The position numbers were made by a program, and so were the translations under genes. 64,000 nt of DNA, from the NCBI GenBank assembly GCA_016214075.1, contig JACRPI010000013.1:5418-69417 (forward strand), given 5' to 3'. Source of the DNA: Candidatus Woesearchaeota archaeon. GTDB lineage: Archaea > Nanobdellota > Nanobdellia > Woesearchaeales > DSVV01. Of the stretch, positions 2,045 through 57,453 are shown piece after piece (positions within the stretch are counted from its first letter, which is position 1; every line of letters begins with the position of its first letter). A model generated the notes under the pieces. The model had not been told where the DNA came from and searched no databases. It saw nothing but the letters and a program-made list of their open reading frames with translations.

Positions 2045-2788
2045 TTACTGAATCACGTCATCATACGGTTTTGTCGCGGCGATTTTCTTTGAACTAAAAT
2101 GCCACCATTCTGCGGTATTTTCTCTTGATGAAGAGTATGGAGTAAAAGAGGTACTCATCACTGTTCGGAGAAGCTCTCGCAAATCCAATATACTCTTTGT
2201 TGGATGTACAAAGTATCCTCTTTGCGCGAAAGCCATTGTATCCTCTTCTGTTTTTTTGTCTCGCGCATTATAAAATTCAGAATAAAGCGAAAATTCATCA
2301 AATTGCGAACCCATCCAAACTTCTTGACCATTCAGTGTTGCAAGGGTCACATCAAGTGTTCTTCCATAATTGTGCCCTGAATATTTCCCTTCTGTTCTGT
2401 TAATATAAGCAACCCATTTACCTACATGTTTTCCTTTTCCTGCTTGTTCTTGTTCTCTGCCCCACTGCATCATTGCTTCTGATGCTTGTATAGGTCTGTA
2501 CGCGTCTTTGACAAGAAGTTGGAGCCCATATTGTTTGAGTGTAGCATTTGCTTGAATGAGATCCTCAACAATTTCTGGATATGTCCATGCTTTTGCTGCT
2601 TCGTAGCCAGGCAATACTTTTCCCATAAAATTTCTTGTTGTCGCGTAGACAGGATCAACGAGAACAGAGGCGTTTCTGTTTGCGGAATATCGTTCAATAC
2701 TTACAAATGGATTTGCTGCTGCGAAAGCAGTGTTCGGTACAAGAAGACGAGCAATAATCATTTCTAGAAAATTTCTTCTGGTTGTCAT
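2045..2788 (-). CDS. D-Ala-D-Ala dipeptidase (VanX/DdpX, peptidase M15D) with a twin-arginine (Tat) signal peptide
   Basis: N-terminal MTTRRNFLEMI matches a Tat motif (RRxFL). VanX signatures are present: YATTRNFMG, YSGHNYGRTLDVTL (SxHxxGxAxD) and EWWHF. Confidence 0.8.
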   Translation of the reverse strand: MTTRRNFLEMIIARLLVPNTAFAAANPFVSIERYSANRNASVLVDPVYATTRNFMGKVLPGYEAAKAWTYPEIVEDLIQANATLKQYGLQLLVKDAYRPIQASEAMMQWGREQEQAGKGKHVGKWVAYINRTEGKYSGHNYGRTLDVTLATLNGQEVWMGSQFDEFSLYSEFYNARDKKTEEDTMAFAQRGYFVHPTKSILDLRELLRTVMSTSFTPYSSSRENTAEWWHFSSKKIAATKPYDDVIQ

Positions 2789-2790
2789 CG

Positions 2791-3369
2791 TTATTTTCCC
2801 TCATGCAATTCTGGAAACAGAATTCTATCATCTAAAGGTGTTCGATAATCTTTGAAGCGAATAGGCACTGATTCTGCGGGGGTTCTTTTACAGACAACAA
2901 GATGAAGATGTGGACCTGTGGAAAGTCCAGTATTCCCGCTCCATCCAATCGGTTGTCCTTGTTCTACTCTTGTCATTTTTCCTGTCTTTTTCCAACGTTC
3001 TTTTAATTCATAATCAACGCCTTGGAAGTAAAGGTGCGCGTAAATAGCGAATGTCCCATCATTATGACGGATGGTCACATAATTTGTTTCTTTTGTTGCT
3101 TTTCTTCGTAACAGAGGGTCTGCGTCTTCATCCAGAAAATGTGTATAATTAAATCTTCCAGAGTCTCGCCAGTCCGCAAGAAAGCCTGCTCGTGCGGCGC
3201 GAAGTTGCGTTCCTTCTTCTAATCCAAAGTCTATTGCGTATGTGCTATCATGGAAAGCTCTTGATTTTTTATGTGTTCCAGGAGCTCGTTTTCTATACCC
3301 TCCAAAGAAACCTTGAGTGATTTCTGGAACTGTTGAAAAAGGAAGAATGTAGGTCATTAAACTTGCCAC
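2791..3369 (-). CDS. M23-family (LytM/lysostaphin-like) metallopeptidase
   Basis: FAIYAHL and GQPIGWSGNTGLSTGPHLHLVV match the M23 HxH/GxxG-TGPHLH region. An upstream FHDSTYAIDF is H...D-like. The ORF overlaps the next gene by 13 nt, which suggests an operon. Confidence 0.75.
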   Translation of the reverse strand: MASLMTYILPFSTVPEITQGFFGGYRKRAPGTHKKSRAFHDSTYAIDFGLEEGTQLRAARAGFLADWRDSGRFNYTHFLDEDADPLLRRKATKETNYVTIRHNDGTFAIYAHLYFQGVDYELKERWKKTGKMTRVEQGQPIGWSGNTGLSTGPHLHLVVCKRTPAESVPIRFKDYRTPLDDRILFPELHEGK

Positions 3370-5423: not shown

Positions 5424-6203
5424 TTACACCCCAACATACGAAGGAATTGCAGTACCAACCTTTTGAAATCCCTTAACCTCAATTCCCGCTTTTTGTATTC
5501 TTCTTTCAGTCTCCACATCAAGAAGTACTACTCCTTCTGTGCTCAGAACTCCTCTCAAATTGTACATCACTTTCTCTATATTTTGATCAGGAAAGTATTT
5601 TAAGATGTTTCTACAGGTAATAACATCAAAAGGAAGATCTGCTATTGTAGTAAGAGCGTCAGTATCAAGAACACTGCATTCCTCAAATCGTACTGCGTCT
5701 CGTAGTTCTGGAGCGACAGTGTATATTTCTCCGCTTTGGGGAAGATATTTTTCTTGCATCGCTATTGGCAGTATCTCATCTGTAATATTCAGGCTGTAAT
5801 ATGCTCCTTTTCTTGCGATGCGAAGTGCTGCAGGATTGACGTCAATGCCAACGATTGTTGTTTCAGCGAGTCTTCCCCCTTCTGCAAAATACATTGCGAT
5901 AGAATATGCTTCAGCGCCTGTTGAACAACCTGCGGACAAAACTCGAGGTGCTCTATTTCTCTGGCATAATGCATACACAATTTCTCCTATCATATTTCTA
6001 TTAAAAAATGTTGTCGAAGGACAAATAGAGGCAAGATTTGTTTCTCGCGATTCAGGATTTTCTGCTATTTGTTCTAATGTTGTACAGATGCTTGTAACAC
6101 AAGCAGAATCAGAAAGATCAAAGAGAATTGCTGCATCCATGCCTGTAAATCTCGAGACGAGTTCAATGGTTCGAGAACGAGTGTCTTCGTGTTGTTTTGT
6201 CAT
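5424..6203 (-). CDS. CheR-type SAM-dependent methyltransferase domain protein
   Basis: RVLSAGCSTGAEAYSIAMYF and FDVITCRNILKYF match CheR signature regions. No other chemotaxis genes occur in the window. Confidence 0.65.
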   Translation of the reverse strand: MTKQHEDTRSRTIELVSRFTGMDAAILFDLSDSACVTSICTTLEQIAENPESRETNLASICPSTTFFNRNMIGEIVYALCQRNRAPRVLSAGCSTGAEAYSIAMYFAEGGRLAETTIVGIDVNPAALRIARKGAYYSLNITDEILPIAMQEKYLPQSGEIYTVAPELRDAVRFEECSVLDTDALTTIADLPFDVITCRNILKYFPDQNIEKVMYNLRGVLSTEGVVLLDVETERRIQKAGIEVKGFQKVGTAIPSYVGV

Positions 6204-12038: not shown

Positions 12039-12271
12039 GGTGTTTCCTCTGCGGCTTTTTCAAAAACGCTGAGCAATTTAGTGATCGTGTTTAATGTTGC
12101 GCGCAACGCGGTTGCGTCTGTCGCGGTGATCGCGAATTGCATGTTTTCTTTTGTCGTGTGAATAGCCACAGTGCTTCGTGGTGTTTGCATGCTTGCGAGT
12201 TCTGCGTCAAAGCAGTGCCGTAATGCAGAAACACGAGGAGATGTGACGATGATTTCAGCAGTGAGTTTCAT
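12035..12271 (-). CDS. Pcc1-like (KEOPS subunit) small protein
   Basis: 78 aa. The size and position between rpoP and pfdB match the conserved archaeal arrangement. Sequence similarity is judged by eye only. Confidence 0.4.
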   Translation of the reverse strand: MKLTAEIIVTSPRVSALRHCFDAELASMQTPRSTVAIHTTKENMQFAITATDATALRATLNTITKLLSVFEKAAEETP

Positions 12272-12405
12272 CGTGCTTTTACTTTTGTCACAGTAGCGCG
12301 TGCTTTATAGAGCATTTTAGAGCCACAGTATGGGCACCGCACTTTTTTTCGTAAAAATTCTACGCCAACAACTTTGTTGCAATCAAAACATTTGTATTCA
12401 ACCAT
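12268..12405 (-). CDS. rpoP: DNA-directed RNA polymerase subunit P (RpoP/Rpb12), a 45-aa zinc ribbon not present in the ORF track
   Basis: Translation MVEYKCFDCNKVVGVEFLRKKVRCPYCGSKMLYKARATVTKVKAR has the CxxC...CxxC ribbon. It lies immediately downstream of rpl37ae, the conserved archaeal order. Confidence 0.75.
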   Translation of the reverse strand: MVEYKCFDCNKVVGVEFLRKKVRCPYCGSKMLYKARATVTKVKAR

Positions 12406-12446: not shown

Positions 12447-12788
12447 TTAAGCAGATTGTTGTTCATCTGCTTGGACTTCTTCTTGTTCTTCCTCGAGGAA
12501 TTCTTCTCCTTCTTCAGGAGTTTCAAGAGTAAGTTCTTGTTTTGTTTCCGCTTCAACACTCGCTTTCTTTGGAAGAGTGTATGCCTTTCCTGTGAAAACA
12601 GCGGCGCATTTTGGGCATTGCCAAATTCCGACTGCCATTCGCTTGACTGCGTTTTTGTGGCAGAATGGGCATTGATAGTTTGTTTTCTGCATTGCTTCAA
12701 CAGTTTCTACTTTCTGTCGAAGTCGTCGTCCGTATCGTGGACCATATCGTTTTGAAGCTCCTTGTCTTTTTGTTTTCATGTATAACAC
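12447..12788 (-). CDS. rpl37ae: Ribosomal protein L37ae (eL43) with an unusual acidic C-terminal extension
   Basis: KRYGPRYGRRLRQK...YQCPFCHKNAVKRMAVGIWQCPKCAAVFTGKAY matches the eL43 zinc-ribbon core. The last ~35 aa are Glu-rich. Confidence 0.85.
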   Translation of the reverse strand: MLYMKTKRQGASKRYGPRYGRRLRQKVETVEAMQKTNYQCPFCHKNAVKRMAVGIWQCPKCAAVFTGKAYTLPKKASVEAETKQELTLETPEEGEEFLEEEQEEVQADEQQSA

Positions 12789-12906: not shown

Positions 12907-12980
12907 TGGGGCTACCCAGATTTGAACTGGGGTCTTCCGGCCCCAAACCGGAAAGGATAGCCAAACTACCCCATAGCCCC
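12907..12980 (-). tRNA. tRNA-Pro (anticodon UGG), no encoded CCA
   Basis: Manually folded. 7-bp acceptor stem GGGGCUA/UAGCCCC, T-arm CCCAG-UUCAAAU-CUGGG, anticodon arm UCCGG-UUUGGGG-CCGGA, discriminator A. Confidence 0.7.
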
Positions 12981-21464: not shown

Positions 21465-21983
21465 CTAAACAGTTGCTTTCAATCCTTTAATCTGTTCTCT
21501 CAAAAATTCAATAGTTCGTGTGTTGTCCTGTTGGGTCAATAGAGATCCACATTCGGGGCATTTGAATTCATGCATAGTTCCTTGTTCAAAGTCAAGGCGT
21601 ACGCACGTGTTAGAACACAAAAAGAAGCATCCTGCGTTCTTTTCTTCTCGTTCAAGGCGATCCTGCAGTTTGTGTAATTTTCCAACTTGCAATCTTCGAG
21701 AACAATCTTTCAATGATTTTTGATTATATGTCCAATAACTGATGTAATATCCTTTTTTAGAATCCTTTTTACGTTTATATTCCACCAGATTTGCGTTGTG
21801 AAGGCGGTATAATATGTTTCGCACAATATGAATTTCAGTCTTTGTTTTTTCAGAGATAATAAACTCTGAAATGTTTTTCTTTCCTTTAAGGAAGTCTACA
21901 ATTGGGAGTGCGTCTGCGCCTACTCCTTCTTCGATAATCTCATTTGCTTTTTTTGCTGTAACTCTCATTGTATTGACCCCCAA
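21465..21983 (-). CDS. tfe: Transcription factor E (TFE/TFIIE-alpha homolog)
   Basis: Winged-helix region IVRNILYRLHNANLVEYKRKKDSKKGYYISYW plus C-terminal zinc ribbon CSNTC...CPECG. Confidence 0.65.
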   Translation of the reverse strand: MGVNTMRVTAKKANEIIEEGVGADALPIVDFLKGKKNISEFIISEKTKTEIHIVRNILYRLHNANLVEYKRKKDSKKGYYISYWTYNQKSLKDCSRRLQVGKLHKLQDRLEREEKNAGCFFLCSNTCVRLDFEQGTMHEFKCPECGSLLTQQDNTRTIEFLREQIKGLKATV

Positions 21984-30699: not shown

Positions 30700-31626
30700 A
30701 TGCTCATCAATGAAGAACTTTACAGGAGAATAAAGCAAAAGAAAAAACAGCTGGACAATCTCCGTCCATTTCCAAAAACAGCGTTAGAACGACTCAAAGA
30801 CCGTTTGCGATTGCTGTTTACGTACAATTCTAATGCAATAGAAGGAAATACACTGACATTAAGCGAAACAAAGCTTGTTGTGCAGGAAGGAATAACTATT
30901 GGTGGAAAATCATTGCGGGAACATAATGAAGCGATCAATCATCAAAAAGCAATTGAGTTTATAGAACAAGCAGTCACTGAAAAAAAACAGATTACAGAAG
31001 AACTTCTTTGTGAACTTCATGGAATCATCCTTGGTAATATCGAGGAAGAAGAAAAAGGAATGTACAGAAAAAGAAAAGTATGGATTGAAGGAGCGTCGTT
31101 TGTTCCCGCAAAGCCAGATCTAGTTCCAAAGCTGATGAAAGACTTTTTTGTCTGGCTCAACACAAATCCTGAAAAGTTAAATGAGATAGAACTGGCAGCT
31201 ATTGCGCATGAAAAGTTTGTATTTATTCATCCTTTTATTGATGGGAATGGAAGGGTTGGACGCTTGCTGACCTCGCTTATGCTTATGCAGAAAGGATTTC
31301 CTCCTTTGATTGTCCTCAAAACAGAACGACAGAAATATATTCGTGTGTTAGAGGCAGCGCACAATGAAAAATACGAATCTCTCGTCAACTTTATGGGAAG
31401 ATGTTTAGAACGGTCTTTGGTTATGTATCTTGAAGCATTAGAAACAAAAATAAAAGAGAATAAGGAGTATATTTCATTGCAAGAAGCGACAAAATATTGC
31501 GATTATAGTCAAGAATATTTGAGTTTATTAGCGAGAAGAGGACTTCTTGAAGCAGTAAAATTTCAACGAGATTGGATGACAACCAGAGAAGCGATTAAAG
31601 AATATAATTCGCGAAACAAGAAATAA
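30700..31626 (+). CDS. Fic/DOC-family protein (AMPylation-type)
   Basis: Canonical Fic motif IHPFIDGNGRVGRLL. Confidence 0.85.
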   Translation: MLINEELYRRIKQKKKQLDNLRPFPKTALERLKDRLRLLFTYNSNAIEGNTLTLSETKLVVQEGITIGGKSLREHNEAINHQKAIEFIEQAVTEKKQITEELLCELHGIILGNIEEEEKGMYRKRKVWIEGASFVPAKPDLVPKLMKDFFVWLNTNPEKLNEIELAAIAHEKFVFIHPFIDGNGRVGRLLTSLMLMQKGFPPLIVLKTERQKYIRVLEAAHNEKYESLVNFMGRCLERSLVMYLEALETKIKENKEYISLQEATKYCDYSQEYLSLLARRGLLEAVKFQRDWMTTREAIKEYNSRNKK

Positions 31627-35195: not shown

Positions 35196-35615
35196 ATGTG
35201 CTATATTTCTCTTTCAATGAATGAACTCAGCGAAAAGAAGAGAGTATTGATCGTTGATGATGATGTGGCGATTGTTTCTTTGATAAAAGACACGCTGGCG
35301 AATAGTTTGTATGAGCTTGTGGGCGCGCATTCAGGATTTGAAGCGTTGCAAACATTACATACGCAGCGAGTGGATATGGTTATCGCGGACATTATGTTGA
35401 CAGAGCACATGAATGGCTATGAATTGTGCAAACAGATTAAGGGGAAGAAAGAAACAGCGCATATCCCTGTGTTGATGCTTTCTGCGAAGAAAGAGATGGA
35501 TGATAAATTGCATGCGGTTTATGCAGGCGCGGATGATTACATGAGCAAGCCATTTTCTACAGAAGAACTCGCGAAAAGAGTGCGGTTGAATTTACATTTA
35601 GTGAAGACAGAGTAA
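35196..35615 (+). CDS. Stand-alone response regulator receiver (CheY-like) domain protein
   Basis: VLIVDDDVAIV carries the phosphoacceptor Asp. ...MVIADIMLT and PVLMLSAK follow. No cognate histidine kinase gene is adjacent. Confidence 0.75.
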   Translation: MCYISLSMNELSEKKRVLIVDDDVAIVSLIKDTLANSLYELVGAHSGFEALQTLHTQRVDMVIADIMLTEHMNGYELCKQIKGKKETAHIPVLMLSAKKEMDDKLHAVYAGADDYMSKPFSTEELAKRVRLNLHLVKTE

Positions 35616-38745: not shown

Positions 38746-39528
38746 TTACAAACATCCCCTATATTTTGCGACAGTGCGACGCGCAACAGATAGCTGGTAG
38801 AGTTCGTGAAGCGTTTCTGCGAGTTCTCTATCAGAAACAAGCCATTTTTTCCCATCAAATAAAGTGGGATCTCTTTGCAATTGTTGCAAAGCATACGTCC
38901 CTTGAAGAGCGAGAAGTTTTGCTCCAGGAATAAGCTCAGTAACAAAGCGATTTTTTTCGTATATATGGACAGTAAGAGTTCTGGTAAGACGGGATATGGC
39001 TGACTCGTCGCATCCAATGGAGTTTGCGACATCTTGCTGCGTGCGATGCTGCATGTTAAGAGGATTTTCTGTTTGAAGATATCTGTATTGAATCGGGCAG
39101 AGATATGCAATAATTTCTTTTTGTTTTTCCACAACCCAAGCTCTGTTTTTTTGAAGCGTAGTGTAAAACTCTCCATTTGCCCGCAGCGCTGCAAATCGCT
39201 CACTAAGACGTTGTTCCCAAAAGGGATTATACTCTACTTCCCATGTATATCGGCCATTCCAAGTATCAGTAAGGTGAATAGAAGCATAAAACTGCGGTAT
39301 TTCAAGAAGGTCTTGTCGTGAAATGCTCCTTGTTACTTTGTCCAGAGCTCTATTTACTGCGTAAAAAAACGTCGTCTTTGTCTCTTTTTCAGGAAGATTT
39401 TCTCTAAGAAACAGTTCTAATTCTAACGGAGAGAGTTCCATCATTACAGCTGCCAGAGGGTCGACACCAGAACGCACTTTGAATTCAAGTCTTAGATGTA
39501 AATCATCACTCATAATCATGCACTTCAT
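38746..39528 (-). CDS. Protein with a C-terminal sigma-54 (RpoN) DNA-binding-domain-like region; the N-terminal ~130 aa are unknown
   Basis: C-terminus LSVARRTVAKYRG matches the RpoN box ARRTVAKYRE. Upstream KKWLVSDRELAETLHEL resembles sigma-54 kPLSDqeIaelL. The HTH TQQDVANSIGCDESAISRLTRTL resembles the sigma-54 HTH (dvAeelg.heSTvSRa). It overlaps the upstream gene by 4 nt. Confidence 0.6.
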   Translation of the reverse strand: MKCMIMSDDLHLRLEFKVRSGVDPLAAVMMELSPLELELFLRENLPEKETKTTFFYAVNRALDKVTRSISRQDLLEIPQFYASIHLTDTWNGRYTWEVEYNPFWEQRLSERFAALRANGEFYTTLQKNRAWVVEKQKEIIAYLCPIQYRYLQTENPLNMQHRTQQDVANSIGCDESAISRLTRTLTVHIYEKNRFVTELIPGAKLLALQGTYALQQLQRDPTLFDGKKWLVSDRELAETLHELYQLSVARRTVAKYRGCL

Positions 39529-40916
39529 TCATTTCTAAATATTGATGTTTCTGGCAGACAAACATTGCCCGTCATCTCATCATATTCTCGTTGGGATTCC
39601 AAGGTGAGCCATTCTAGCAGGGAGAATATTTCTTCGTCGCCATGCAAAAAAGTCGAACCTTTTTTGCAGGCTGTGGGGATTGTGTCTTGTTCATGTGTAT
39701 CGTGTTCATTAATGTCGTCTTCATCAACGCAAATTTGCAATGCGTTATACTGCCAATAGACCTCGCTTTTTTTTGCTCTGCATGCTCTGTCCATTTTTGG
39801 CAGAAACTCTCCAGAAGGATAATTATGCAATATATCTATGCACTGTTCTAACGCGTCTTCCATCTCTCTATGCCCTGCGATGTATCCTTGGTTTTCCCAA
39901 AACGCTCTTTGAATTCTTGCAATTTTTGTTGGAGATGCCTTCTGTTGCGCGCCATACATCTCTTCCCATCCAAGTTGATATTCTAATTCAGAAACAACCT
40001 TGTATGGTTTTGACGCAATAATCTGCGGAAGAATCTCTTCTGTGTATCCTGCTATGATCTCTTCATCGCTCATGTGTCTTGGAATAGGATCCCACAAAAA
40101 AAGCAGAGGTGTGGTAACATAATCCCAGCCGCGGACATTTTCTTTTTTTGTCATGACTTCTGTTCCAAGCTGTTTATTTCCCTCCACTGTTATTGCTGCG
40201 TTGGCAATAACGTCACGATAATATTTTTCCATGATCGCGTCGATTTTTACGGAGTCCGCGTCTTCTACTATTGTTCCTTCACGAATAATAATGAATACCT
40301 TTCCTTTAGATCTATGCTCTGGCGTTCCAATAATCATTCTCACTACTTCTGGAACAGCGGTTTGCATCTCCCATTGATAAGGCCAAATAGTACCTAATGA
40401 AATCTCAGGATACGTAAGGGTTTGCCTTCCTATTCCGCAGGTGTGCCTGACAAATAACCCTTCTTTAGGAGGGTAGTCAATTTTTTTTGGAATACCATCT
40501 TTATCATGTCCAAACAATAAGTTATGCGGATGCGCGATGATGCGGGCTCCTGGCGCGCTCCATTGATCCCATGATCCATGTCCCGCGATGACAACATCGC
40601 TTATAGATGTATCTTCCAATACTTCTACGACATCGCCATTTTTAACAGGATCATAAACAATTGCGTGTTTTCCAAACGCGGTTTCGACGCGATGAACGTA
40701 CAAATCAGTTGCGCCAGGGAAATAGCGCAAATAATCAAACCAGTGTACTGGTTTTGTGATCATAATCGCAAGTTTGTCTGTATTGGGATTAGGAAGTTTA
40801 GATGCTTCATGGGAGAAATAACCACATAAACTTGCGTATGTTGCAAGCCCTGCTGTTGCCAGAGCCGCGGTTACTTTGTTTATTGCTTTGAAATATTTTG
40901 GTGAACGCATAGTCAC
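39525..40916 (-). CDS. Secreted hypothetical protein (signal peptide), in an operon with the sigma-54-DBD-like gene
   Basis: N-terminal MTMRSPKYFKAINKVTAALATAGLATYASLCGYF is signal-peptide-like. 463 aa, no motif. Confidence 0.45.
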   Translation of the reverse strand: MTMRSPKYFKAINKVTAALATAGLATYASLCGYFSHEASKLPNPNTDKLAIMITKPVHWFDYLRYFPGATDLYVHRVETAFGKHAIVYDPVKNGDVVEVLEDTSISDVVIAGHGSWDQWSAPGARIIAHPHNLLFGHDKDGIPKKIDYPPKEGLFVRHTCGIGRQTLTYPEISLGTIWPYQWEMQTAVPEVVRMIIGTPEHRSKGKVFIIIREGTIVEDADSVKIDAIMEKYYRDVIANAAITVEGNKQLGTEVMTKKENVRGWDYVTTPLLFLWDPIPRHMSDEEIIAGYTEEILPQIIASKPYKVVSELEYQLGWEEMYGAQQKASPTKIARIQRAFWENQGYIAGHREMEDALEQCIDILHNYPSGEFLPKMDRACRAKKSEVYWQYNALQICVDEDDINEHDTHEQDTIPTACKKGSTFLHGDEEIFSLLEWLTLESQREYDEMTGNVCLPETSIFRNE

Positions 40917-41169
40917 TACCCCCTACGTTTCCGTAGATGGTAGTTTTTAGAACTCAAATCTGTTCATGGTTGTTATCTCCAACCCAAGTCTCTTCACGGT
41001 TGTTAACATTGAGCTCGAAGAGATCAATGTTGCCACAAAGCTTTGCTTTGTAAGCATCTCCAACCCACGTTCCCATGAAGAAGGAATTAATGGAAAGTAA
41101 TGCTCCATAATTTATAAATATTATCACTATTTAGAAGTTAAAATATTGAAGTTTTTTCACATTGATAAC

Positions 41170-42927
41170 CTATTCAACCTTCGTAATCAGAAGCTGCTGC
41201 GCAACGCGCTCATAGGTTGCATCTTTATTCACGACAGTATTAGTCATAGGATCTTTGTTATAAGGATAATTATCTTCAACAGTTATCGTGACGGAAAAAG
41301 GAGACATGGTATCAATGGTAAAATCCGTAGAGGCGAACGATTCCGTACTTGCGATGAGTTTTCTTCCTGGAGCGCATGTCGAGACGTAGTTTGCGAAGTT
41401 ATCAGCTCCCGCTCCTCCTGACGCGGTAGAACAGCTGAAAAGAAAGATAACAGCGTCAGAGGGAAGATACGTTAATGCTTGACAAAAGGAAGCGTCAGAC
41501 TTATCAAGGTAATATGATTCATCTGTTCCATAACCTAATTGAGAGCCATCAGGATTTCCATGCGCGGCAAGAGTGAAAAGATGCGTATCTTTAAATGCGT
41601 CAGGAACTCTATCAAAAAGGGTATCATCTTCAAGAAAGCCGACAGTGACATCATAGGTATTTCTCGCTTCTGCGAGCTTCTTTTTAATGTCAGTATTTTG
41701 AAATGCTCCATTCCAGTCATTTTGAGAGAAAAGAAGAAGCATATTTGGTTTTGATGACCTTGGTTCGTTAAAGAGAGTATCTGCGTTATACCCTAATGCC
41801 GCATAGCGAACAACTTGATAGGGTTTTAACAATGGTTTATTATCCGCGTCAATAAGATCCGCGAGACTTTTTACGTCAGCGGGATTTCCTTGCATTTGAG
41901 CAAACGGAGCAACATAACTTCCATTTGAAAATATTTGCTCTCCTGCGGAATTTCTAATTCCAAGAAGCTCTCGCAAATAGGCATCATCTTGTCCAGCGCG
42001 TGCATATAAGACTGCGTCAGATCCTCTTGTAAAAAGAGGATCTCCTTTTCTGTTCTTGAGTTTTGCAAGAGCAATGAGTTGATCTTTTGTGACCACATTA
42101 TACGCGGCGCGAGAATAATCTTCGTCAGTTTTGAACAAAGGTCTGCCATCTGGTGTTTTTATTTCACTGAACGAAATAAATGTGTCAAGTGTTGTTGATT
42201 GTTGGAGAACTCCTCCAAGAACAGGAAGAAGGTCTCGCGCGGTGGTAAAGACCTCTTTTCCTGATTCATTTTTGATTGCGTGTAATTTTCTTATTGCGTC
42301 TGTTGAGATATTTTTATCTTTTCGCATGAGTGCAGCAGATGCGTAATCCTGTGGTGTAGTAAAGAGAGGAATTCCATCTTCATTAACTATTGTAGCCAAT
42401 TCCTGAGCAAAAGGGATGTCTCCACCTGACGCTTTGTAAAGGACAACATCTTCCCATGTTTTAAAGATAGAATCCGTTTGGCTTGTATTATCTTCAGTGA
42501 TCTTCAAGAGGGCAATAACATCCTCTATTCTGCCATCATTTACTCTGTATAATGCGAAGCCAGGCTTGTCACAAACACGATGAAGTGAATTGCTGAGAGA
42601 AGTAAGAACAAGCGCGGCGGCTTGCGCTTCTTCAAGAGTCCCTCCTTTTTCTTGAAATTGCGCAACTTCCTGCGCAGTGCAAAAAAGCTGCGCTCCATCA
42701 ACAGACTGTAAAGCCATAAAATCCTGCGTTGGCAGTGTGTACCATATGGAAACAGCGTCAGGGTCTTCTGGAAGCTCAACAAGAGAAGGAGGAGTATTGT
42801 GGTGAGGAGGAGTTTCAATGCTCTGCGCATGGGGTGTGTAAATAGATACTGCATTCGTTTCTTCAGGAGTAGGACTAGAAGAAAGGAGAGTCATCAGTGC
42901 GTAGAGGGGCAGTTTTGTTCCTTTCAT
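41170..42927 (-). CDS. Secreted repeat-containing protein with a C-terminal caspase/CHAT-like (clan CD) peptidase-like domain
   Basis: N-terminal signal MKGTKLPLYALMTLLSSS. Internal repeats (DGIPLFTT / DGRPLFKT / GDPLFTR / GEQIFSN). C-terminal LAAHGNPDGS...VIFLFSCSTASGG resembles the His-Gly...Cys catalytic dyad arrangement of caspase-fold proteases. Confidence 0.4.
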   Translation of the reverse strand: MKGTKLPLYALMTLLSSSPTPEETNAVSIYTPHAQSIETPPHHNTPPSLVELPEDPDAVSIWYTLPTQDFMALQSVDGAQLFCTAQEVAQFQEKGGTLEEAQAAALVLTSLSNSLHRVCDKPGFALYRVNDGRIEDVIALLKITEDNTSQTDSIFKTWEDVVLYKASGGDIPFAQELATIVNEDGIPLFTTPQDYASAALMRKDKNISTDAIRKLHAIKNESGKEVFTTARDLLPVLGGVLQQSTTLDTFISFSEIKTPDGRPLFKTDEDYSRAAYNVVTKDQLIALAKLKNRKGDPLFTRGSDAVLYARAGQDDAYLRELLGIRNSAGEQIFSNGSYVAPFAQMQGNPADVKSLADLIDADNKPLLKPYQVVRYAALGYNADTLFNEPRSSKPNMLLLFSQNDWNGAFQNTDIKKKLAEARNTYDVTVGFLEDDTLFDRVPDAFKDTHLFTLAAHGNPDGSQLGYGTDESYYLDKSDASFCQALTYLPSDAVIFLFSCSTASGGAGADNFANYVSTCAPGRKLIASTESFASTDFTIDTMSPFSVTITVEDNYPYNKDPMTNTVVNKDATYERVAQQLLITKVE

Positions 42928-56571: not shown

Positions 56572-57453
56572 TTACCAATTTTTTGCTTGTTCTTGCAGCT
56601 CAAACAGGAGATATTTGAGCATGGGAAGAATATTTCCATCATCTGCTTTTTTTAACGCTGTATAATATCTTCTTTTGTTTTTGTTTTGAACAATAAGAAG
56701 AGGATATTTGTTTTTAAGAAGAATGTAATTAAGCAGCAACCTTCCTACCCTTCCGTTTCCATCAAAGAAAGGGTGTAATCGCTCAAAAACGCTATGAAAC
56801 TCGCTTGCTGTTTCCAGAGGGTGGAGATTATTTTTGTTATTATGATACCAGTCTAAAAGGTTATCAAGTTCAGTCTCAAGCAATTTGGCAGAGATAGGAA
56901 TAAGCGTGCCAACACGAACTTGTCCTGTTCTAAATTTTCCAGCATCTTCTGTAACTGTGTTTTTAAGTAATCGATGAAGTTCAAGAATGAACTCTTTTGA
57001 AATGTCTCCTTTAAGCTGTTGTTTCATGTAGAGAAACGCTTGCTTGTGATTCTCAGCTTCTTTAATGTCCCTAATTGGTTTTTCTTTAGGACTAATCCCT
57101 TCTTCAAGAAGCATCTTTGTGTCTTTATAGCTCAGTGTAGAGCCTTCTATTCGGTTCGTGTCATAAGTAAATTGAGTAATAATCTCATTTTCTAATTGAT
57201 ACAGTTCATCTGTTGCTGCCTGTTTAATCTTGTTTTGGTATTTTGTTTGTATCTCATCCAGTGTTTTGTTGTTCTGGGCAAAAAAAAGCGCGACTTTGTT
57301 AAATTCTTTTCCAAAAGCAGTTACATCTTTCGCAGAAGGAGGGTTGAGACCAATGTATCTTTCTATTTTTTTCCATTTATTGTCTGCGATTCGTGTTGAT
57401 TCTACAAGATAATAGTATTCTCTTCCGTTGACGTTCTTTTTTCTGACAAACAT
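56572..57453 (-). CDS. Fic/DOC-family protein (second paralog)
   Basis: Fic motif HPFFDGNGRVGRLL. Overall similarity to the Fic gene at 30700-31626. Confidence 0.85.
   Translation of the reverse strand: MFVRKKNVNGREYYYLVESTRIADNKWKKIERYIGLNPPSAKDVTAFGKEFNKVALFFAQNNKTLDEIQTKYQNKIKQAATDELYQLENEIITQFTYDTNRIEGSTLSYKDTKMLLEEGISPKEKPIRDIKEAENHKQAFLYMKQQLKGDISKEFILELHRLLKNTVTEDAGKFRTGQVRVGTLIPISAKLLETELDNLLDWYHNNKNNLHPLETASEFHSVFERLHPFFDGNGRVGRLLLNYILLKNKYPLLIVQNKNKRRYYTALKKADDGNILPMLKYLLFELQEQAKNW

What the first reader, a model, noticed from the sequence alone, without database searches (positions are those of the whole stretch)
38746..39528. Sigma-54 (RpoN) DNA-binding-domain homolog in an archaeon
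The C-terminal ~130 aa of this 260-aa protein carry an almost perfect RpoN box (ARRTVAKYR vs consensus ARRTVAKYRE, DNA at ~38758-38787). The preceding LVSDRELAETLHEL and an HTH (DVANSIGCDESAISRLTR) line up with the C-terminal DNA-binding domain of bacterial sigma-54. Every other informational gene in the window is archaeal (TFE, RpoP, eL43, aMBF1, archaeal GluRS). Archaea use TBP/TFB/TFE and have no sigma factors, so an isolated sigma-54 DBD fused to an unknown N-terminal domain is unexpected. It could be a horizontally acquired -24/-12-type DNA-binding module repurposed as a transcription regulator. It sits in an operon (4-nt overlap) with a secreted 463-aa protein and beside a secreted caspase-like repeat protein.
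Basis: partly seen in the sequence, partly recalled or inferred. Interest (0 to 1): 0.85.

Follow-up and report, generated by a model that had tools for sequence, protein, structure and literature searches.

The report
Archaeal sigma-54 lacking its polymerase-binding domain
A small archaeon of the DPANN group carries a cut-down copy of the bacterial sigma-54 factor that keeps the DNA-reading parts but lacks the part that grips bacterial RNA polymerase; it belongs to a previously undescribed family found mostly or only in such archaea and most likely acts as an ordinary DNA-binding regulator.

Summary
ORF 38746-39528 (-), 260 aa (255 aa from Met6, NCBI HZC31_02700, Ca. Woesearchaeota), passes Pfam Sigma54_DBD (36.5 bits, cutoff 22.8). 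Its RpoN box ARRTVAKYR is identical to E. coli's. The contig is archaeal: TFE, eL43, RpoP and Pcc1 lie in the same window.

The protein is not an orphan. An exhaustive search found about 70 clusters of 230-350 aa proteins with the same layout. Twelve of the 13 loci checked are archaeal by gene content or record title; one is unresolved.

No neighbour is conserved. I found no -24/-12 sites, no enhancer-binding ATPase signature and no viral relatives.

Best reading: a sigma-54 gene acquired from bacteria, stripped of its polymerase-binding domain, and kept as a stand-alone DNA-binding regulator with two reading heads. The target DNA is unknown.

This is a new variant of a known kind.

The parts
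38746..39528 (-). Gene for the sigma-54-like protein. It is 260 aa from the first ATG. The more likely start is Met6 at 39513, giving 255 aa, which equals NCBI HZC31_02700.
   Evidence: P0001 matches residues 6-260; Pfam Sigma54_DBD
39391..39513 (-). Residues 6-46: N-terminal segment resembling sigma-54 Region I (LHLRLEFKV...MELSPLELELFLRENL).
   Evidence: hhalign places family columns 1-40 on sigma-54 profile columns 1-46 (E. coli residues 1-43): score 31.1, P 1e-4. 150 column shuffles gave mean 9.7 and maximum 16.1. An HMM of the family N-terminus places its best hit in the first 70 aa of 90 of 112 bacterial sigma-54s. Pfam Sigma54_AID itself is not hit.
39307..39390 (-). Residues 47-74: family-specific helical linker where sigma-54 has Region II and the core-binding domain.
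   Evidence: No significant similarity to any part of sigma-54. No Sigma54_CBD hit is listed for the 51 members. Helices 51-68 and 71-76 in the model.
38749..39306 (-). Residues 75-260: region homologous to E. coli sigma-54 residues 271-470 (beta-hairpin, extra-long helix, HTH, RpoN domain).
39070..39168 (-). Residues 121-153: extra-long helix equivalent. Q147 corresponds to invariant Q351 of sigma-54. The sigma-54-invariant R336 is V132 here.
38983..39039 (-). Residues 164-182: helix-turn-helix. ESAISR (175-180) aligns with E. coli ESTISR (378-383), which is the -12-reading helix in sigma-54.
38758..38784 (-). Residues 249-257: RpoN box ARRTVAKYR, identical to E. coli residues 454-462.
39525..40910 (-). 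Upstream gene on the same strand, encoding 461 aa from the ATG at 40910 (P0002). Function unknown; it has an N-terminal hydrophobic segment. It is probably co-transcribed with the sigma-54-like gene, but this pairing is not conserved elsewhere.
40911..41118 (-). TATA-like TTTATAAA (41111-41118) followed by a conserved structured leader ahead of the 461-aa gene. This is the likely promoter and 5' UTR of the transcription unit that ends with the sigma-54-like gene.

Best explanation
The gene encodes a sigma-54-derived protein that has lost Region II and the core-binding domain. It keeps a Region-I-like N-terminus, the extra-long helix with its HTH, and the RpoN domain.

It belongs to a conserved family of 230-350 aa proteins found in DPANN archaea (MAGs labelled Woesearchaeota, Pacearchaeota, Aenigmarchaeota and others). 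The family most likely stems from an old transfer of a bacterial rpoN gene.

The domain that anchors sigma-54 to bacterial RNA polymerase is gone, and the host uses an archaeal polymerase with TBP/TFB/TFE. The protein therefore most likely acts as a stand-alone, sequence-specific DNA-binding transcription regulator. The RpoN domain and the HTH would read two short elements about one helical turn apart. The Region-I-like helices would pack on the long helix, as they do in sigma-54.

Shown: the homology, the fold, the missing domain, the family, and the archaeal hosts.
Inferred: DNA binding, the two-part site, the regulatory role, and the bacterial origin.
For: - Pfam Sigma54_DBD is above its cutoff, and 47 of 51 family members hit it.
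- The profile-profile alignment covers E. coli sigma-54 residues 271-470 with E 1.2e-23.
- The AlphaFold model built on the family alignment has pLDDT 91.2 and pTM 0.87.
- DNA-contact motifs are kept: ESAISR against ESTISR, and an identical RpoN box. Within the family, R456 is kept in 88% of members and Y461 in 82%.
- The N-terminus resembles Region I.
- There is no core-binding-domain signal, and the TIGR02395 score is 38 bits against a cutoff of 277.
- The family has 74 hits at E<=1e-3 and 44 at E<=1e-10 among 1.84 billion representatives.
- Hosts are archaeal for the window and for L007/L008 (Cdc6-type AAA with Cdc6_lid), L013 (Pacearchaeota), L010/L012, L014 (ribosomal P0), L015 (deoxyhypusine synthase, ZPR1), L016 (PTH2, Dna2), L018 (PurP) and L019. 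L017 has only weak archaeal indicators.
- Family genes are preceded by TATA-like boxes.
Against: - No DNA target was found. Canonical TGGCAC-N5-TTGC sites are not enriched in the window (22 found, 32 expected), and none is intergenic.
- No conserved gene neighbour hints at a regulon.
- The Region I similarity is weak. Pfam Sigma54_AID is not hit, and the hhalign probability is only 56%.
- The sigma-54-invariant R336 is not kept, so behaviour at a -12-like element may differ.
- One distant member (P0056) lies on a 1.0-1.2 Mb scaffold whose domain I could not settle. It carries Mur ligases, FemAB and tRNAs with encoded CCA. The family may therefore not be purely archaeal.
Confidence: 0.6

Rival explanations
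1. It still works as a promoter-specificity or initiation factor. It would dock on the archaeal RNA polymerase or pre-initiation complex through surfaces other than the lost core-binding domain, and it might be switched by an ATPase through its Region-I-like end.
For: A Region-I-like N-terminus is retained; in sigma-54 its known role is control of polymerase isomerisation and contact with activators. The whole promoter-reading apparatus is conserved. Sigma-70-type genes have been reported in DPANN with unknown roles (PMC8204110).
Against: The core-binding domain is absent. R336, which is important for sigma-54 control at -12, is not conserved. No GAFTGA-type activator signature was found in the window or in the related loci held at that point (L001-L008, L010-L016), and a 2025 survey reports none in 380 archaeal proteomes (PMC12316311). 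No -24/-12 promoters were found in the window.
Confidence: 0.08
2. It binds DNA but its role is not transcription control, for example chromosome organisation, replication or partition, or defence.
For: No regulon or conserved neighbour was found. A ParA-type ATPase gene lies about 2 kb away in the window.
Against: The ParA proximity is not seen at the other loci. The conserved residues are those used for sequence-specific promoter reading. The family gene occurs once per locus in housekeeping surroundings.
Confidence: 0.15
3. It is a decaying remnant of a transferred rpoN gene with no function.
For: Half of the ancestral protein is missing, and the word-index search found only the protein itself.
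Against: About 70 diverged clusters keep the same length and layout. They share invariant or near-invariant positions (Q147, L199, W229, the RpoN box). The fold is predicted with high confidence.
Confidence: 0.04
4. It is a bacterial gene on a chimeric or mis-binned contig.
For: Sigma-54 is otherwise bacterial, and the sequence comes from a metagenome-assembled genome.
Against: The gene sits 4 nt from an archaeal-type GluRS and in the same 64-kb window as TFE, eL43, RpoP and Pcc1. Composition is uniform. The same architecture recurs on many independent archaeal contigs. No bacterial sigma-54 with this short layout appeared among the hits listed.
Confidence: 0.02

Closest known systems
Bacterial sigma-54 (RpoN, sigma-N), e.g. 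E. coli RpoN and Aquifex aeolicus sigma-N (PDB 5UI5, 8RE4)
   Same: Homologous over E. coli residues 271-470: hairpin, extra-long helix, HTH with ES(T/A)ISR, and the RpoN domain with an identical RpoN box. The N-terminus resembles Region I. The predicted fold matches only sigma-54 strongly.
   Different: It lacks Region II and the core-binding domain, so it is about 260 aa rather than about 480. R336 is not conserved. It has family-specific motifs (W229, P201-G202, NLTIQLPD, W131). It is encoded in archaea that have no bacterial RNA polymerase. No enhancer-binding ATPase or -24/-12 promoters were detected.
Sigma-70-type genes reported in DPANN archaea (Castelle et al. 2021, PMC8204110)
   Same: These are also bacterial sigma-factor homologs in DPANN genomes, especially Woesearchaeota, with unknown roles and mis-binning ruled out by the authors.
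   Different: They belong to a different, unrelated sigma family. That paper and its held supplements do not mention sigma-54. Here the polymerase-binding part is clearly missing.
Bacterial-type HTH transcription regulators of archaea (general class)
   Same: The likely mode of action is the same: a stand-alone DNA-binding protein of bacterial type modulating a TBP/TFB-driven promoter (established knowledge of archaeal regulation; inferred here).
   Different: Those regulators are usually dimeric winged-helix proteins such as the Lrp, MarR and ArsR types. This protein carries two different DNA-reading modules in one chain, derived from an initiation factor.

Membership tests
Sigma-54 (RpoN) sigma factor | C-terminal DNA-binding region (Pfam Sigma54_DBD) with an RpoN box | tested here: met
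   36.5 bits against a cutoff of 22.8. The RpoN box is identical to E. coli residues 454-462. hhalign E 1.2e-23.
Sigma-54 (RpoN) sigma factor | HTH that reads the -12 element (E. coli residues 367-386) | tested here: met
   ESAISR aligns with ESTISR, and helices 164-171 and 175-182 are present in the model. DNA binding itself was not tested.
Sigma-54 (RpoN) sigma factor | Core-binding domain (Pfam Sigma54_CBD) | tested here: not met
   Sigma54_CBD does not appear among the families listed for the 51 members (the first 25 of 75 are shown, down to 2 members each). Residues 44-80 have no significant similarity to sigma-54. The protein is about 220 aa shorter than sigma-54.
Sigma-54 (RpoN) sigma factor | Region I, the activator-interacting domain (Pfam Sigma54_AID) | tested here: inconclusive
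   No Pfam hit. However, hhalign places the N-terminus on sigma-54 residues 1-43 (score 31.1; shuffles reach at most 16.1), and positional concordance is 90 of 112.
Sigma-54 (RpoN) sigma factor | Full-length equivalog score (TIGR02395) | tested here: not met
   38 bits against a cutoff of 277.
Sigma-54 (RpoN) sigma factor | Partner enhancer-binding AAA+ activator (GAFTGA) in the genome | tested here: inconclusive
   No signature in the 64-kb window or in the related loci held at that point (L001-L008, L010-L016). The rest of the genome was not available. The literature reports none in 380 archaeal proteomes (PMC12316311).
Sigma-54 (RpoN) sigma factor | -24/-12 (GG-N10-GC) promoters in the genome | tested here: not met
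   22 matches against 32 expected at up to 2 mismatches. All 15 stricter matches lie in coding sequence. Only 7.5 kb of intergenic DNA was available.
Sigma-54 (RpoN) sigma factor | Works with the bacterial RNA polymerase core | not testable with these tools
   The window encodes archaeal RpoP and TFE. No bacterial polymerase gene was seen, but the whole genome was not examined.

The most novel reading that the evidence does not exclude
The retained Region-I-like segment, together with the full promoter-reading module, may mean the protein still takes part in transcription initiation in these archaea. It could, for example, occupy promoter DNA next to BRE/TATA and be released or remodelled by an ATPase. 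That would be sigma-54-style, enhancer-like control grafted onto an archaeal polymerase.
Probability: 0.08. Interest if true: 0.9.

Novelty: new variant of a known kind. Interest (0 to 1): 0.62.

Why it matters
Sigma factors are treated as a strictly bacterial invention. A 2025 survey of sigma-54 states that sigma factors are absent from archaea (PMC12316311). The only precedent I found is a brief report of sigma-70-type genes in DPANN (PMC8204110).

A conserved archaeal family that keeps exactly the promoter-reading half of sigma-54 and has dropped the polymerase-binding half is a natural experiment. It shows how an initiation factor can be turned into an ordinary regulator. It is also a further sign of gene flow from bacteria into DPANN archaea.

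The protein is small and predicted with high confidence, so it is easy to test. One binding-site selection experiment would show whether it still reads GG/GC-type sites.

Tried and rejected
- The single-sequence AlphaFold model was unusable (pLDDT 40). It was replaced by the model built on the family alignment.
- The word-index homolog search found only the protein itself. When given the family alignment, it was flooded by bacterial sigma-54.
I used a hand-made degenerate pattern, W-K-x-x17-ARRT-x-x-KY, instead. It gave three true hits, all in archaeal MAGs, and one chance hit in Rhodoferax.
- Conserved operon with the 463-aa protein: rejected. Its homologs have unrelated downstream genes, and the 465-aa gene near P0056 is unrelated.
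- Canonical -24/-12 sites: not enriched, and none intergenic. I saw no shared motif by eye in the upstream regions of eight family genes.
- Enhancer-binding ATPase signatures: none.
- Viral or mobile origin: no BFVD fold match, no phage tblastn hit, and no match in viral contigs.
- Core-binding-domain remnant in residues 44-80: none.
- PDB sequence searches for the two neighbouring proteins gave nothing significant.
- The afdb50 fold library was unavailable.
- Naming the host of P0056 through cluster names and contig walking failed.

Full report
**Observation.** The ORF at 38746-39528 (minus strand) encodes 260 aa. These include ARRTVAKYR at residues 249-257 (nt 38758-38784).

The similarity to sigma-54 is far beyond chance:
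- Pfam Sigma54_DBD matches residues 145-258 at 36.5 bits (cutoff 22.8, E 5e-9).
- NCBIfam rpoN models match only the C-terminal part, at 38 bits against a full-length cutoff of 277.
- Single-sequence comparison with solved sigma-54 chains is weak but collinear, query 85-259 against Klebsiella 276-464.

NCBI annotates the protein from Met6 as HZC31_02700, 255 aa, from Candidatus Woesearchaeota, on an 84-kb contig. With that start the claimed 4-nt overlap with the upstream gene becomes an 11-nt gap.

**The contig is archaeal.** The same window carries TFIIE-alpha/TFE (21465-21983), ribosomal L37ae (12447-12788), the 7-kDa RNA polymerase subunit RpoP (12268-12405), Pcc1, prefoldin beta and UPF0147. 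It also carries a class I Glu/Gln-type tRNA synthetase. That gene ends 4 nt from the stop codon of the sigma-54-like gene. GC content is flat at about 0.41 across 36-43 kb. Nothing indicates a chimera.

**A family, not an orphan.** The word-index search found only the protein itself. The exhaustive phmmer search of 1.84 billion cluster representatives found 74 proteins at E<=1e-3 and 44 at E<=1e-10, nearly all 230-350 aa long.

Their alignment (A1 and A2) shows a shared layout:
- an N-terminal M-x-LGL-x-L-x-L...GLSPLELELLLD segment;
- a short variable linker;
- LExPQ...YN;
- a long helix with an invariant Gln;
- an HTH with S-x-VSRL..NLT;
- L-x-PG;
- an invariant Trp (WKVSD);
- the RpoN box.

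Forty-seven of 51 members hit Sigma54_DBD. Neither Sigma54_AID nor Sigma54_CBD appears among the families listed.

**Extent of homology.**
- A profile of the family against a profile of 20 bacterial sigma-54s (E. coli RpoN first) gives probability 99.6 and E 1.2e-23. It aligns window residues 75-260 with E. coli residues 271-470.
- The N-terminal 74 residues alone align, end to end, with sigma-54 Region I. Window residues 1-46 match E. coli residues 1-43 with score 31.1 and P 1e-4. In 150 column shuffles the mean was 9.7, the sd 1.9 and the maximum 16.1.
- An HMM of the family N-terminus puts its best match within the first 70 residues of 90 of 112 full-length bacterial sigma-54s. Scores exceed those on reversed decoys.
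- Residues 44-80 show no similarity to the core-binding domain or to anything else in sigma-54.

The architecture is therefore: Region-I-like end, short linker, then the whole Sigma54_DBD region. Region II and the core-binding domain are missing.

**Structure.** With the family alignment, AlphaFold gives pLDDT 91.2 and pTM 0.87. The single-sequence model was useless.
- Foldseek against the PDB returns sigma-54 chains as the top 29 hits, and nothing else below E 0.2.

The superposition of 175 residues implies that the HTH and the RpoN domain are held at about the same distance as in sigma-54.

**Residues.**
- Q147 corresponds to invariant Q351.
- E175-S-A-I-S-R180 corresponds to E378-S-T-I-S-R383.
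- The RpoN box is identical to E. coli residues 454-462.
- Within the family, R456 is kept in 88% of members, T457 in 76% and Y461 in 82%.
- The sigma-54-invariant R336 and T339 are not kept. This fits the loss of the polymerase-linked function.

**Hosts.** Every locus that could be judged is archaeal:

| Locus | Family member | Evidence for an archaeal host |
|---|---|---|
| L007/L008 | P0083 | Aenigmarchaeota MAG; Cdc6-type AAA with Cdc6_lid; TRM5/TYW2-type methyltransferase |
| L013 | 275-aa ORF | Pacearchaeota RIFCSPHIGHO2_02_FULL_33_14 |
| L010, L012 | L012 = P0009 | MAGs labelled as uncultured Methanosarcinales archaeon |
| L014 | P0018 | ribosomal L1 and L10/P0 insert |
| L015 | P0026 | deoxyhypusine synthase, ZPR1, OapB/C |
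| L016 | P0017 | PTH2, Dna2, Lhr |
| L018 | P0044 | PurP |
| L019 | P0021 | DRG-type GTPase |
| L017 | P0038 | only DUF8128 (weak indicator) |

The one Rhodoferax match to my search pattern is a chance hit with no family ORF.

One distant member, P0056, lies on 1.0-1.2 Mb scaffolds with GC 0.476. These carry Mur ligases, MurL, FemAB and tRNAs with encoded CCA. I could not decide whether that organism is archaeal or bacterial. Its nearest relatives in the family include P0044, which has an archaeal context.

Family genes are mostly preceded by TATA-like boxes. There are no viral relatives.

**Context and targets.**
- No neighbour is conserved among the loci.
- Homologs of the 463-aa upstream protein exist, but their downstream genes are unrelated to sigma-54.
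- The canonical sigma-54 promoter consensus is not enriched in the window (22 matches against 32 expected).
- All 15 stricter GG-N10-GC matches lie in coding sequence.
- No GAFTGA, ESELFGH or Walker-A signatures of enhancer-binding ATPases occur in the window or in the related loci held at that point (L001-L008, L010-L016).

**Mechanism.** It is established knowledge that sigma-54, unlike sigma-70, can bind some promoters without core polymerase, and that its C-terminal part carries that activity (from my own knowledge, not checked against a paper here). A protein that keeps this part intact has no core-binding domain and lives in a cell with an archaeal polymerase. It is most simply a stand-alone, probably monomeric, DNA-binding regulator that reads a two-part site. 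The Region-I-like helices (residues 21-43, pLDDT 87-96) probably pack on the long helix as in sigma-54. They may gate the HTH.

I put the identity (a sigma-54 derivative without the core-binding domain, forming a DPANN family) at about 0.9. I put the regulator mechanism at about 0.6.

Rivals:
- a residual initiation-factor role, 0.08;
- a DNA-binding role outside transcription, 0.15;
- a decaying remnant, 0.04;
- contamination, 0.02.

**Literature.**
- No paper in the library combines sigma-54 with DPANN.
- The one paper that mentions RpoN together with Woesearchaeota uses the name for the archaeal polymerase subunit N.
- A 2025 sigma-54 survey states that sigma factors are absent from archaea. 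It found no sigma-54 activators in 380 archaeal proteomes (PMC12316311).
- Castelle et al. 2021 report sigma-70-type genes in DPANN but not sigma-54 (PMC8204110).

I therefore rate this a new variant of a known kind: clearly of sigma-54 descent, but failing the membership test for a sigma factor.

**Side finding.** The 253-nt region upstream of the 461-aa gene holds a TATA-like box and a conserved leader of about 170-190 nt.
- The leader recurs upstream of the homologous operons in L001/L022 and L003, and upstream of a further operon of unexamined genes in L021.
- RNAalifold predicts 45 pairs, 9 of them with compensatory double changes among only four sequences.
- The last helix covers a GGGGGU Shine-Dalgarno-like run just before the start codon.
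- The window copy folds with z -3.9.
- It has no Rfam match, even at E<=1.

It looks like an undescribed cis-regulatory RNA. It belongs to the 463-aa gene family, not to the sigma-54-like gene.

Noticed in passing
window 40911-41118 (- strand); also L001 5225-5437 (= L022 8245-8450), L003 655-787, L021 2375-2583: A conserved structured leader RNA follows a TATA-like box, upstream of the 461-aa gene and its homologs in L001/L022 and L003 (and of a further operon in L021 whose genes were not compared). It has four to five helices, and 9 of 45 predicted pairs show compensatory changes among four sequences. The last helix sequesters a GGGGGU Shine-Dalgarno-like run next to the ATG. There is no Rfam match. 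It is a candidate new cis-regulatory RNA (riboswitch-like) of DPANN archaea.
   Followed up: partly
window 39525-40916 and 41170-42927 (- strand): Two large proteins have hydrophobic N-termini and no Pfam, NCBIfam or PDB sequence match. The 585-aa one has only a sub-threshold DUF4347 hit. By eye, both contain an HG...C arrangement (AGHGSW / HTCGIG; AAHGNPDG / FSCSTASGG) reminiscent of a His-Cys peptidase dyad. The 463-aa family has paralogs in the same MAG (HZC31_05265) and two copies on one contig elsewhere.
   Followed up: partly
window 2045-2788 and 2791-3369 (- strand): Adjacent genes encode a D-Ala-D-Ala dipeptidase (Peptidase_M15) and an M23 peptidase. These are bacterial cell-wall hydrolase types in an archaeon. 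A LysM-M23 protein, a MurG-like glycosyltransferase and BacA also lie near a family member in L018.
   Followed up: no
window 30700-31626 (+) and 56572-57453 (-): The window has two Fic/DOC-domain proteins. Fic genes also flank the homologous 469-aa gene locus in L001.
   Followed up: no
window 35196-35615 (+), 5424-6203 (-): The window encodes a stand-alone response-regulator receiver protein and a CheR-type methyltransferase, with no other chemotaxis genes seen. A receiver-only gene also lies immediately next to the family member P0044 in L018.
   Followed up: no
L004/L005/L020 (GROS21 scaffolds, 1.0-1.2 Mb): A near genome-sized scaffold carries the distant family member P0056 next to a tRNA-Met. 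It also has MurL, two Mur ligases, FemAB, a polysaccharide deacetylase and a cupredoxin/COX2-like protein. Both tRNAs have encoded CCA ends. Whether the organism is archaeal or bacterial is unresolved.
   Followed up: partly
family members P0036, P0044, P0050, P0059: A subgroup of the family replaces the RpoN box ARRTVxKY with a different C-terminal motif (G-x-I-I-P-K-Q-W-I..L-K-Y) and carries a C-terminal extension. This suggests changed DNA specificity.
   Followed up: no
window 12907-12980 (-): ARAGORN finds a tRNA-Pro(TGG), yet the Rfam search at gathering threshold reported no match at all in the window, not even to the tRNA family.
   Followed up: no
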